From Octopus vulgaris (lineage: Eukaryota), in NCBI GenBank assembly GCA_951406725.2, contig OX597816.1, positions 70,990,001 through 71,054,000 of the forward strand: a stretch of DNA of 64,000 nucleotides, given 5' to 3'. The notes beneath the pieces are model-generated. The model made no database searches, was not told the DNA's origin, and was given only the letters and a program-made list of their open reading frames with translations. Shown here piece after piece: positions 3,120-63,108 of the stretch (positions are counted from its first letter, which is position 1; each line of letters begins with the position of its first letter). A program made the translations under genes and the position numbers.

Positions 3120-3189
<70 letters not shown>

Positions 3190-3193
<4 letters not shown>

Positions 3194-3385
3194 AAAATTC
3201 AGAAAAAATTAACAAAAGACGAAGACAGGTGGTGTAGACAACAAACAGATGTATTAGTTTAACGCTCGGGAAGTGAAAAAGTCTTTAACGTTTCGTGCCT
3301 ACGCTCTTCCACAGAAAGGAACACAGAAAGAAACAAGGAGAGAAAATAAAAAATGTGTAGTGGCTAGCAATCTATCATGGCAAAA
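3190..3385 (-). mobile_element. Penelope-like terminal-repeat (pLTR) remnant in (TA)n, family H1, with hammerhead-like motif
   Basis: Homologous to 13810-14230 and 62975-63110; minus strand 3318-3281 reads cttt CTGTGGA A GAGC-GTAG-GCAC GAAAC GTT aaag. Confidence 0.65.
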
Positions 3386-13145: not shown

Positions 13146-13809
13146 ATATATCTCCCTCCTAACATTTATCCATACTTTACATGGTTTTGCTGCATATGAG
13201 CGTTAGTTTAGAAGCGTTGTGCTCATCCGGATTTTGCATGGCAGCCTTCATTCTGTTAGATTTATTCATGATAGTTTTCAAAGCTGACACTAGACGTTCT
13301 AACGACTTTAGAACAATTGTCTTTTACTCATTTTCTTTTGTTTGTTTTATAATATTTCGTTTAATGTTGCTTTATGCATACATGACACGACAATTAGAAC
13401 TGGATAACAAGCACATTGAATTAATTAAAAAAAAATATTGTTTGTTCAGAAATTACTAAATTACTTCACATAGCACGAGCAAACTGTCCAGAACTCAAAA
13501 GCAGACCAAGTGTGACTAATTGACTTCTGTTTTTTTTTTTGAGCGCGCTAATAAAGCAAGACAATGGATATTTATAATAAAGGGGGGATTATTAATTAAA
13601 TAATGTGTTTATAAGGATTTTCAAATTTAAGCGAGAATTTCTGTGGAAGGCTAGGCATCCAGAATAGATGTTTATTTTGAGATTTTAAACTGATTCTTTC
13701 AGTAAGGTGAAGGCGCGTGGCCTAGTAGATAGGGTGTTGGAATCGTAATATCTTGGTTTCGATTCCTAGAACGGTAGTGCTAAATCCACAAATGTCTTTC
13801 TTATTCTCT

Positions 13810-14009
13810 CACTATTTATTTCCTCATGTTCCGTTTCGTTGAAGAGCGTAGGCTCGAAAGGTAAAAGACTTTCTCACCTTCCCGAACGTCAAACTATTAC
13901 ACCTGCTTGTTGTTTATACACCTGTCTTCGTCTTTTGCTTTTCTGTAAATTTAAACTATATATGTATATATATGTGTGTATATATATATATGTATATATT
14001 ATAAATGTG

Positions 14010-14050
<41 letters not shown>

Positions 14051-14230
14051 ACATATAGCCACTACACACATTTTTTTCTCTCCTTGTTTTTGTCTGTGTC
14101 CCTTTCTGTAGAAGAGCGTAGGCTCGAAACGTAAAAGACTTTTTCTATTCCTGAGCGTTATACTAATACATCTGTTTGTTTTGTACACCACCTGCCTTCG
14201 TCTTTTGTTTTTTTTTCGTAAACTCTCCCT
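13810..14230 (+). mobile_element. Tandem Penelope-like pLTR units (family H1), each with a hammerhead-like motif
   Basis: Two direct units 270 bp apart; motifs at 13833-13869 and 14102-14139. Confidence 0.7.
14102..14139 (+). ncRNA. Minimal type I hammerhead-like motif with A6U core variant
   Basis: cttt CTGTAGA A GAGC-GTAG-GCTC GAAAC GTA aaag: stem I cttt/aaag, stem II GAGC/GCTC, palindromic ACGT in stem III, GUA triplet. Confidence 0.55.
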
Positions 14231-14750
14231 ATAAATATGCATATATATACACAAACACACATAGACCACACACACTAATATATATATTAGGACAAGGGAG
14301 AATGCGAATTTAGAATACCACAGAAACACATCAATGATGGAAGTATGGTGCACCGTGTTAAGCTCTAAAAGAAAAACAACAAAAATACTAGGTTAATTGA
14401 CTAATCGTGACTATTATCGTTTAGTGCCAGGAACTCCTTTTTGTCCATCACTCTCTTTGATATTGATAATAAATGCATACACACATACACGCACGTATAA
14501 CTCACAATCATACGCCTAAATACAACTCACAAACACACACATACACATGTTGGTGTGCACATACGTTTGCATACACTAAGATTCATTCATATATATGCTT
14601 GCATTGAGAAAGAAGAGCACAAGGTAACCCACAAATTCATCTGCACTAACATATTCATATAAACGGTTGGGGCGCAGAAAGCTGTTTGTGTGTCTCTGTA
14701 TTAAGAGTGTGTATACAAATGTGTGCGTATTTGTGTGTCGATGTATGCAT

Positions 14751-21059: not shown

Positions 21060-21260
21060 TTATCCCCCTCAAAAAACAAATAACGAAGGAAAAACACAAG
21101 AAAAAACAACAGCGCGAGGACGTGGTACATGCAAAGTATTAGCAGACGCTCCAGGAAGGAAAGAAAGCTCTTCTTCAGAAACAGGAAACAGAGGAAAGTC
21201 AAAGAGAAAAAGATGACGGAGTAAAAAAACCGCCAACGATCCCCATCGTTGCACTTTGAA
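21060..21260 (-). mobile_element. Penelope-like remnant related to H1, retaining the 5' half of a canonical hammerhead
   Basis: Minus strand gtttCTGAAGAAGAGC at ~21167-21182; homologous to 61980-62140. Confidence 0.5.
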
Positions 21261-61962: not shown

Positions 61963-62143
61963 CTTACATATATAGTAAATCCAAAGAAAGAACAAACGCA
62001 CAAAAAAAAAACAACGCAAGGATGTGGTACACGTAATTAAAGTATTAGCAGACATTCAGGGAAGTAAAGAAAGATGATTTAGTCCAATAGAAAGGAAGAC
62101 GGAGGAAGAATATCGCCAATGATTCACATGTAGTTACATTTTG

Positions 62144-62867: not shown

Positions 62868-62960
<93 letters not shown>

Positions 62961-62974
62961 GAGAGAGTTCAAAT

Positions 62975-63108
62975 TTACAGAAAACCAAAAGAGAAAAGAC
63001 AGATGTACGAACAGTCAGCAGGTATATTAGTTTGACGCTCGGGATATTTCGAAAAGTCTTTTACGTTTCGAACCTAGGCTCTTCGATAGAAAGGAATAAG
63101 AGGGGAAA

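What the first reader, a model, noticed from the sequence alone, without database searches (positions are those of the whole stretch)
14102..14139. Dispersed hammerhead-like family with a shared non-canonical core (A6->U) and a free position 7
Seen: four related motifs. 3318-3281(-) cttt CTGTGGA A GAGC.GTAG.GCAC GAAAC GTT aaag; 13833-13869(+) TCGTTGA A GAGC.GTAG.GCTC GAAAG GTA aaag; 14102-14139(+) cttt CTGTAGA A GAGC.GTAG.GCTC GAAAC GTA aaag; 63093-63056(-) cttt CTATCGA A GAGC.CTAG.GTTC GAAAC GTA aaag. Known: Penelope-like elements carry minimal type I hammerheads (CUGANGA..GAAA..UH) with a short palindromic stem III. All four copies have T at core position 6 (normally A), while position 7, the free position, is G, T, A and C. 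Stem I (cttt/aaag) and stem II are largely kept, and a relative at ~21167-21182(-) has canonical CTGAAGA-A-GAGC. Inference: either a naturally variant ribozyme (CUGUNGA) that is still constrained, or a family that amplified after losing cleavage.
Basis: partly seen in the sequence, partly recalled or inferred. Interest (0 to 1): 0.8.

Follow-up and report, generated by a model that had tools for sequence, protein, structure and literature searches.

The report
Active retroelements with altered hammerhead cores
These motifs are the hammerhead-shaped RNA ends of a young, intact Penelope-like jumping gene whose copies almost all carry U where hammerheads normally need A, so the RNA likely cuts itself only slowly, which would make it a natural test of whether such elements need self-cleavage to spread.

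Summary
Observation confirmed and extended. The four motifs are 5'-truncated 3' ends (pseudo-LTRs) of a Neptune-type Penelope-like retrotransposon in a 2.8-Gb animal genome, probably an octopus (inferred). Genome-wide, position 6 is T in 17,610 of 18,333 exact-context copies; A (226) is at mutation level. U6 is the master state from an old subfamily (about 11% diverged) to a young autonomous one: intact RT-GIY-YIG ORFs, 0.2-0.7% apart, with U6 motifs at both ends. In a flank-anchored sample only positions 7 and 17, the hammerhead's two free positions, vary widely (2 of 36 motif columns vs 22 of 77 flank columns). The catalytic guanines G8 and G12 and both stems are kept. A sister autonomous family carries a different core change (U4C), while related subfamilies and the Acropora Neptune keep CUGANGA. 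Best reading: a constrained but weakened hammerhead that needs a dimer and probably protein; cleavage is untested, and published core mutants are slow. I found no natural U6 hammerhead in the papers searched, but one key paper was unavailable. This scan noted the same family earlier on another piece of this genome. New variant of a known kind.

The parts
14102..14137 (+). Minimal type I hammerhead-like motif, A7/A17 subfamily: stem I 14102-14105 with 14134-14137; core C3-A9 14106-14112 (U6 = 14109); extra A 14113; stem II 14114-14125; G12-A15.1 14126-14129; ACGU palindrome 14129-14132; predicted cut 3' of 14133
   Evidence: cut site inferred from hammerhead numbering
14056..14238 (+). 5'-truncated 3' pLTR fragment of the Neptune-type PLE that holds the motif, ending at a (TA)n-like junction
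   Evidence: 76% to the pLTR of the intact element and 97% to another genomic copy; 40 further genomic places at 97-100%
13779..13957 (+). Older pLTR copy (old T7 subfamily), core at 13837-13842 with U4 deleted and C15.2 changed; 269 nt upstream of the 14106 core, separated by microsatellite
   Evidence: 85% to old-subfamily loci
3182..3381 (-). pLTR copy of the G7/U17 subfamily; motif 3318-3283; one stem II mismatch
62960..63108 (-). Old decayed pLTR copy; motif 63093-63058; G5 changed to A, U6 kept
21072..21240 (-). pLTR copy of the sister lineage with canonical CUGAAGA; about 23-nt deletion removes the 3' half of the hammerhead
61964..62140 (-). Second sister-lineage pLTR copy in which the whole hammerhead region is missing

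Best explanation
The motif is the minimal hammerhead in the pseudo-LTR of a young, intact Neptune-type Penelope-like retrotransposon, with U fixed at core position 6; it likely remains under selection as a hammerhead fold and would cleave only slowly, as a dimer and probably with help from the element's own protein. Shown: it lies about 750 nt upstream of the ATG and about 110 nt before the (TA)n junction, in both pLTRs of 4.5-kb partial tandems; the dispersed copies are 5'-truncated insertions. Inferred: a read-through transcript carries two motifs that pair through the ACGU palindrome to make stem III; G12 and G8 do the chemistry 3' of GUA or GUU; U6 lowers the rate, so most RNA stays uncut as message and template for reverse transcription, and cutting is a late or minor step.
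For: Position 6 genome-wide: T 17,610, A 226, C or G 497; for comparison, non-T at position 4 is 363 (reversed-pattern controls 0). Flank-anchored sample: 73 of 90 copies cover the motif; T6 in 71; only positions 7 and 17 exceed 20% variation, 2 of 36 columns vs 22 of 77 flank columns, Fisher P = 0.006. Position 7 tracks subfamilies with their own flanks. Subfamily consensuses have A, U or C at 17, never G. All motifs next to 29 of 30 endonuclease-selected loci, and all motifs in 14 of 14 ten-kb loci, are CUGUUGA; 9 of the 14 have intact 1059-1102-aa ORFs that differ by 0.21-0.69%. The old subfamily (about 11% from consensus) is also T6, and its A6 and C6 copies do not cluster on a tree. Stem I covaries: C-G in the U6 lineage, G-C in the sister lineage, other pairs in metagenome homologs; 83 of 84 cells paired. 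Literature: natural A6C and U4C hammerheads keep low activity (PMC3088659); PLE minimal hammerheads cleave weakly and as dimers (PMC4209133); an anole PLE hammerhead cleaves only with the PLE protein (PMC11167929).
Against: No cleavage data exist for this RNA. In a pairwise mutational scan all CUGA-region single mutants had low activity and none was rescued except the C3-G8 swap (PMC9901934). In the anole PLE, catalytic mutants did not affect insertion in vitro and no RNA-seq reads ended at the cut site (PMC11167929). U6 is predicted to add a pair that closes U4-G5-U6 onto A15.1-C15.2-G16.2 in the monomer, and downstream sequence competes for stem II in several subfamilies. The column test uses related copies, a few subfamilies and T-rich flanks that align poorly, so its P value is optimistic. 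Stem II shows no two-sided change, and the two pairs with two-sided change are not above the shuffles (177 of 500). The pLTR probably also holds a promoter, which could conserve DNA sequence for other reasons.
Confidence: 0.5

Rival explanations
1. The motif no longer cleaves at all. The hammerhead fold is kept as a structural or protein-binding element (RNP assembly, RNA dimerisation, positioning of reverse transcription).
For: Two independent U-turn changes (U6, C4) are carried by the two young autonomous families examined. CUGA mutants are low-activity (PMC9901934). Cleavage is dispensable for anole PLE insertion in vitro (PMC11167929). Naiad PLEs reach high copy numbers without canonical hammerheads (PMC8557442).
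Against: The variable positions are exactly 7 and 17; position 17 stays H in subfamily consensuses; G8 and G12 never change in them. The two tolerated changes are at positions where natural variants keep some activity (PMC3088659).
Confidence: 0.3
2. The motif is a dead relic. U6 hitch-hiked in a master element, and the conservation reflects recent common descent or an overlapping DNA-level signal such as the internal promoter.
For: One origin of U6 is enough. Few subfamilies were sampled. Sequence around the motif is also partly conserved. PLE promoters lie in pLTRs (review PMC6765202).
Against: Over the same history 22 of 77 flank columns became polymorphic and the endonuclease fell to about 65-93% identity, while 34 of 36 motif columns held. 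A DNA signal would not be expected to free just positions 7 and 17.
Confidence: 0.12
3. U6 is a compensated, fully active hammerhead variant, rescued by the GUAG loop II, by the dimer geometry or by the protein.
For: U6 co-occurs with a lineage-specific GUAG tetraloop and a 4-5-bp stem I, and has persisted through several amplification waves.
Against: No second-site rescue of CUGA mutants was seen in a complete double-mutant scan of another hammerhead (PMC9901934). No candidate compensating contact was identified here.
Confidence: 0.08

Closest known systems
Minimal type I hammerheads (min-HHR) of metazoan PLE pLTRs, nearest the Acropora digitifera Neptune motif (Cervera and De la Pena 2014, PMC4209133, Fig. 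S3)
   Same: U-rich 5' flank, short stem I, extra A between 9 and 10.1, G10.1-C11.1, 4-bp stem II ending GCUC, GAAA-C-G-U-H with no loop 3, two copies flanking the ORF. Metagenome homologs of the ORF carry the Acropora-type motif.
   Different: A6 is U. All Fig. S3 motifs as I read them have A6; the only core variant described is U3-A8. Their descriptor required the canonical core, so it could not have found U6.
Natural core-variant hammerheads: A6C of phage Bcep176, U4C of a viroid (Perreault et al. 2011, PMC3088659)
   Same: Same two U-turn positions changed; low but detectable activity.
   Different: Those are isolated cases. Here A6U is fixed in at least 17,610 copies and U4C in at least 8,703 copies of autonomous retroelements.
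Poseidon_Ac hammerhead of Anolis carolinensis (Frangieh et al. 2024, PMC11167929)
   Same: PLE pLTR hammerhead upstream of or at the ORF start; model for protein-assisted cleavage.
   Different: Conserved C3-G8 core, Poseidon clade, overlaps the start codon. Here the motif is about 750 nt upstream of the ATG.
Neptune clade of EN+ PLEs (as described in Craig et al. 2021, PMC8557442)
   Same: RT then C-terminal GIY-YIG, CX2-5CxxC linker, DKG motif, (TA)n targets, partial tandems.
   Different: Described as carrying canonical hammerheads.

Membership tests
PLE minimal type I hammerhead (min-HHR) | Located in pLTRs flanking an RT-EN ORF | tested here: met
   12 of 14 ten-kb loci have two motifs 4449-4573 nt apart around the ORF region
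PLE minimal type I hammerhead (min-HHR) | Stem I, stem II with G10.1-C11.1, extra nucleotide after A9, palindromic 15.2-16.2 | tested here: met
PLE minimal type I hammerhead (min-HHR) | Core CUGANGA (or U3-A8) | tested here: not met
   U6 in 17,610 of 18,333 exact-context copies
Hammerhead ribozyme (catalytic class) | G8, G12, C3-G8, G5, A9, A13, A14, A15.1-U16.1, H17 | tested here: met
   68-73 of 73 copies at each conserved position; H17 in 72 of 73
Hammerhead ribozyme (catalytic class) | Self-cleavage 3' of NUH | not testable with these tools
   Needs a bench assay; only contigs, no raw RNA reads, were offered
Hammerhead ribozyme (catalytic class) | Match to an Rfam hammerhead model | tested here: not met
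   0 matches at E <= 10 on 201 nt; a canonical minimal motif was not run as a control
Neptune-clade PLE | Single ORF, RT followed by C-terminal GIY-YIG | tested here: met
   RVT_1 E 1.1e-07 (above cut-off); GIY-YIG E 2e-4 to 5e-3 (just below cut-off); YIDD and YIGQT motifs
Neptune-clade PLE | CX2-5CxxC linker and DKG motif | tested here: met
   DKG at 376, linker cysteines at 836-844
Neptune-clade PLE | Phylogenetic placement with reference Neptune proteins | tested here: inconclusive
   No named Neptune protein in the tree. Homologs of about 55-60% identity carry the published Acropora Neptune hammerhead. Nematis also has the linker.
Non-LTR retrozyme | Non-coding tandem repeats of short units | tested here: not met
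   Copies are dispersed 5'-truncated ends of a coding element
Naiad PLE | N-terminal GIY-YIG, DKA motif | tested here: not met
   Endonuclease is C-terminal and the motif is DKG

The most novel reading that the evidence does not exclude
Neptune retroelements have repeatedly detuned the U-turn of their hammerhead (A6U once; U4C in the sister family and again in distant homologs) so that it is off as free RNA and is switched on only by the element's own protein: a protein-gated hammerhead with a CUGUNGA core, invisible to canonical searches and present in tens of thousands of copies.
Probability: 0.25. Interest if true: 0.8.

Novelty: new variant of a known kind. Interest (0 to 1): 0.58.

Why it matters
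What the PLE hammerhead is for is an open question: it is nearly universal in C-terminal-EN PLEs, yet weak in vitro and dispensable for insertion in the one reconstituted system. Here two young autonomous families in one genome carry different changes in the supposedly invariant CUGA turn while keeping the catalytic guanines, next to canonical relatives. This gives matched natural U6, C4 and A6 versions with their own proteins, so the question can be tested directly. If U6 cleaves, the hammerhead consensus widens and descriptor-based surveys have missed large families. If it does not, a hammerhead fold is being selected for a non-catalytic job.

Tried and rejected
Rfam: no hammerhead found. 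One search used a pattern one base out of register and is discarded; one search is the corrected one. Expression: no RNA holder listed. The four runs laid were contigs, which cannot show RNA ends, strand or level; within the motif only positions 7 and 17 differed at 5% or more, but the 85% likeness cut-off favours the U6 family, so I do not count it. The ORF was not examined in sequencing runs. A hidden A6 subfamily inside the GUAG-loop lineage: rejected; A6 and C6 copies carry the flanks of U6 subfamilies and do not cluster (shuffles as low in 125 and 319 of 500). In that old class C6 (14 of 100) and A6 (6 of 100; hand count) are two to three times the mean T-to-C and T-to-A rates (6.5%, 2%), so small unresolved subfamilies are not excluded. 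A shifted register (UUGAAGA as core): rejected because stem II would fall to 2 bp. U6 kept as part of a 3' splice site (pyrimidine tract then UAG): fits only the A7 subfamily, and no joint was listed there. An intact autonomous copy with canonical A6 was not found in the loci fetched, but it was not searched for exhaustively. Lunse, Weinberg and Breaker 2017 (PMC5785218) is not held. The only 'A6U' hit concerned twister ribozymes.

Full report
Observation. The four motifs are in the window as described, with small end shifts. A profile search with the 165-nt element around 14106 returns only these four places. Only the 14106 copy is undamaged. The 13837 copy lacks U4 and has C15.2 changed, the 63089 copy has G5 changed to A, and the 3314 copy has a stem II mismatch. 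The 'relative' at 21167 is a sister-lineage copy that has lost the 3' half of the motif. Rfam did not recognise the motif.

Genome-wide state of position 6. The window lies in a 2.80-Gb genome of 227 contigs. With the rest of a 25-nt context fixed, position 6 is T in 17,610 copies, A in 226 and C or G in 497; non-T at position 4 gives 363; reversed-pattern controls are 0. A6 is therefore no commoner than ordinary mutation. A pattern that leaves the 5' core and stem II free gave 23,104 matches (control 33); among the first 100 listed, by hand count, position 6 is T 96, A 2, C 2 and position 7 is T 42, C 24, A 23, G 11. To avoid circularity I anchored on a flank about 80 nt downstream (21,541 matches) and aligned the first 90: 73 reach the motif and 17 are truncated or broken before it. 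T6 is in 71 of 73. Only positions 7 (T29, A23, C15, G6) and 17 (A58, T13, C1, G1) vary above 20%: 2 of 36 motif columns against 22 of 77 flank columns, Fisher P = 0.006. The copies are related, come from one chromosome end and include two near-duplicate pairs, and the flanks are T-rich, so this P value is optimistic. Positions 7 and 17 follow subfamilies with their own flanks.

What the element is. Longer copies extend about 900 nt upstream into a GIY-YIG frame. Searching with that domain returned 150 scored matches at 99-100% identity. In 29 of 30 loci a motif lay downstream, always CUGUUGA. Of 14 ten-kb loci, chosen for long open frames or tandem spacing, 12 have two motifs 4449-4573 nt apart and 9 have an intact 1059-1102-aa ORF; these differ by 0.21-0.69%. 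The protein has RT and C-terminal GIY-YIG domains, DKG, YIDD and a CX2-5CxxC linker, the features given for Neptune and Nematis in PMC8557442 (passages read). Insertions end in (TA)n. The 5' motif is 741-795 nt upstream of the ATG. So the U6 motif belongs to a young, apparently autonomous element, and the dispersed copies are its truncated 3' ends.

History. An old subfamily, about 11% from its consensus, also has T6; its A6 and C6 copies are scattered on a weakly supported tree. With the calibration in PMC13282606 (first third read; 0.09 = 25 My, 0.12 = 33 My), and if the host is an octopus, U6 is roughly 25-33 My old. Endonuclease identity across U6 subfamilies runs from about 65 to 93%. A sister lineage with homologous flanks and a triloop has canonical CUGANGA: it makes up most of the first 100 of 8,525 matches to a canonical-core pattern (control 109). 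It also has a U4C family of 8,703 exact copies. In 9 loci fetched for that lineage every motif was CCGACGA, and 7 had ORFs of 883-1061 aa, 96-99.9% identical to each other and 60-68% to the U6 protein. The two lineages are sisters (100/100) among 21 proteins. In 80 metagenome loci with homologous ORFs a relaxed scan found 11 motifs: 6 CUGANGA, 4 CCGACGA, 1 U3-A8, none U6; shuffles gave 0. Most of these match the Acropora digitifera Neptune motif printed in Fig. S3 of PMC4209133. A6 is thus ancestral and U6 derived once, and U4C recurs.

Structure. On 12 hand-picked representatives 83 of 84 stem cells pair; stem I changes on both sides between lineages and stem II only on one side. Relatedness inflates the shuffle control, and the count of two-sided pairs is not above it. 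ViennaRNA keeps stem II in short constructs (P 0.98-1.0 for U6 forms), but the monomer tends to close U4-G5-U6 onto A15.1-C15.2-G16.2, and a downstream GAGC competes for stem II in longer constructs; canonical relatives misfold similarly. With no loop 3, the active form would need two copies pairing through ACGU, as proposed in PMC4209133.

How it likely works. Shown: location, fixation of U6, conservation pattern, intact host element. Inferred: transcription across a partial tandem, dimer formation, and slow cleavage after GUH aided by the ORF protein. For this: the free positions are exactly the hammerhead's, G8 and G12 hold, position 17 stays H, and the tolerated changes are at positions where natural variants keep low activity (A6C under 0.1 per min; U4C; PMC3088659, section 8 and passages read). 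The anole PLE hammerhead cleaves only with protein (PMC11167929, first two of four parts read). Against: CUGA-region mutants were all low in a pairwise scan (PMC9901934, passages read; supplements listed, not read), and the anole element inserted equally well with a dead ribozyme. I put weak, assisted cleavage at 0.5, a non-cleaving structural role at 0.3, a neutral relic at 0.12 and full compensation at 0.08.

Novelty. PLE minimal hammerheads are known (PMC4209133: first two of four parts and supplement file 2 parts 1-2 read; file 1 not searchable). The motifs in its Fig. S3 all have A6 as I read them. Searches for hammerhead with A6U, with CUGUNGA-type strings, with octopus, with Neptune/pLTR and for natural core variants showed no natural U6 hammerhead; most hits were seen as listings only. 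PMC11014351, PMC11662667, PMC6765202 and bioRxiv 10.64898/2026.07.22.740005 were seen as passages. Lunse et al. 2017, which surveys small PLE hammerhead variants, could not be read and may bear on this claim. Verdict: real, a new core variant of a known motif, with catalysis untested; interest 0.58.

Noticed in passing
L571-L577 (e.g. G000:C1:32234001-32243500): A second young autonomous Neptune-type family (units about 6.2 kb, ORFs 883-1061 aa) carries a U4C core, CCGACGA, at every motif found; 8,703 exact copies genome-wide.
   Followed up: partly
L367, L378, L392 (metagenome contigs): Distant homologs with the Acropora-type Neptune motif also show U4C in 4 of 11 motifs found, so U4C recurs in this clade.
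   Followed up: partly
window 13707-13775 (+): A tRNA-like SINE head (A- and B-box-like sequences, read by eye) lies directly upstream of the 13779-13957 pLTR copy and 14056-14238 follows it; a Pol III read-through would carry two motifs, one of them broken.
   Followed up: no
window 40967-41198: Near-perfect inverted repeat of about 85-nt arms around a (TA)n spacer; its Rfam microRNA hit is below the gathering score.
   Followed up: no
L142:7945-8667 (+): The ORF runs about 100 codons past the endonuclease into a low-complexity Pro/Ser-rich tail whose frame and length differ between copies.
   Followed up: no
about 20-30 nt downstream of position 17 in both lineages (e.g. window 14149-14157): A conserved CC(C/U)GAGCG can pair with the 3' strand of stem II plus G12; a possible built-in off conformation.
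   Followed up: partly
L101 and L213: Another minimal hammerhead-like motif with a 5-bp stem II and U3-A8 core, unrelated to this family.
   Followed up: no
L180, L514, L010, L535: Fragments of a more distant Penelope-like RT (about 29% identity) lie near some copies.
   Followed up: no
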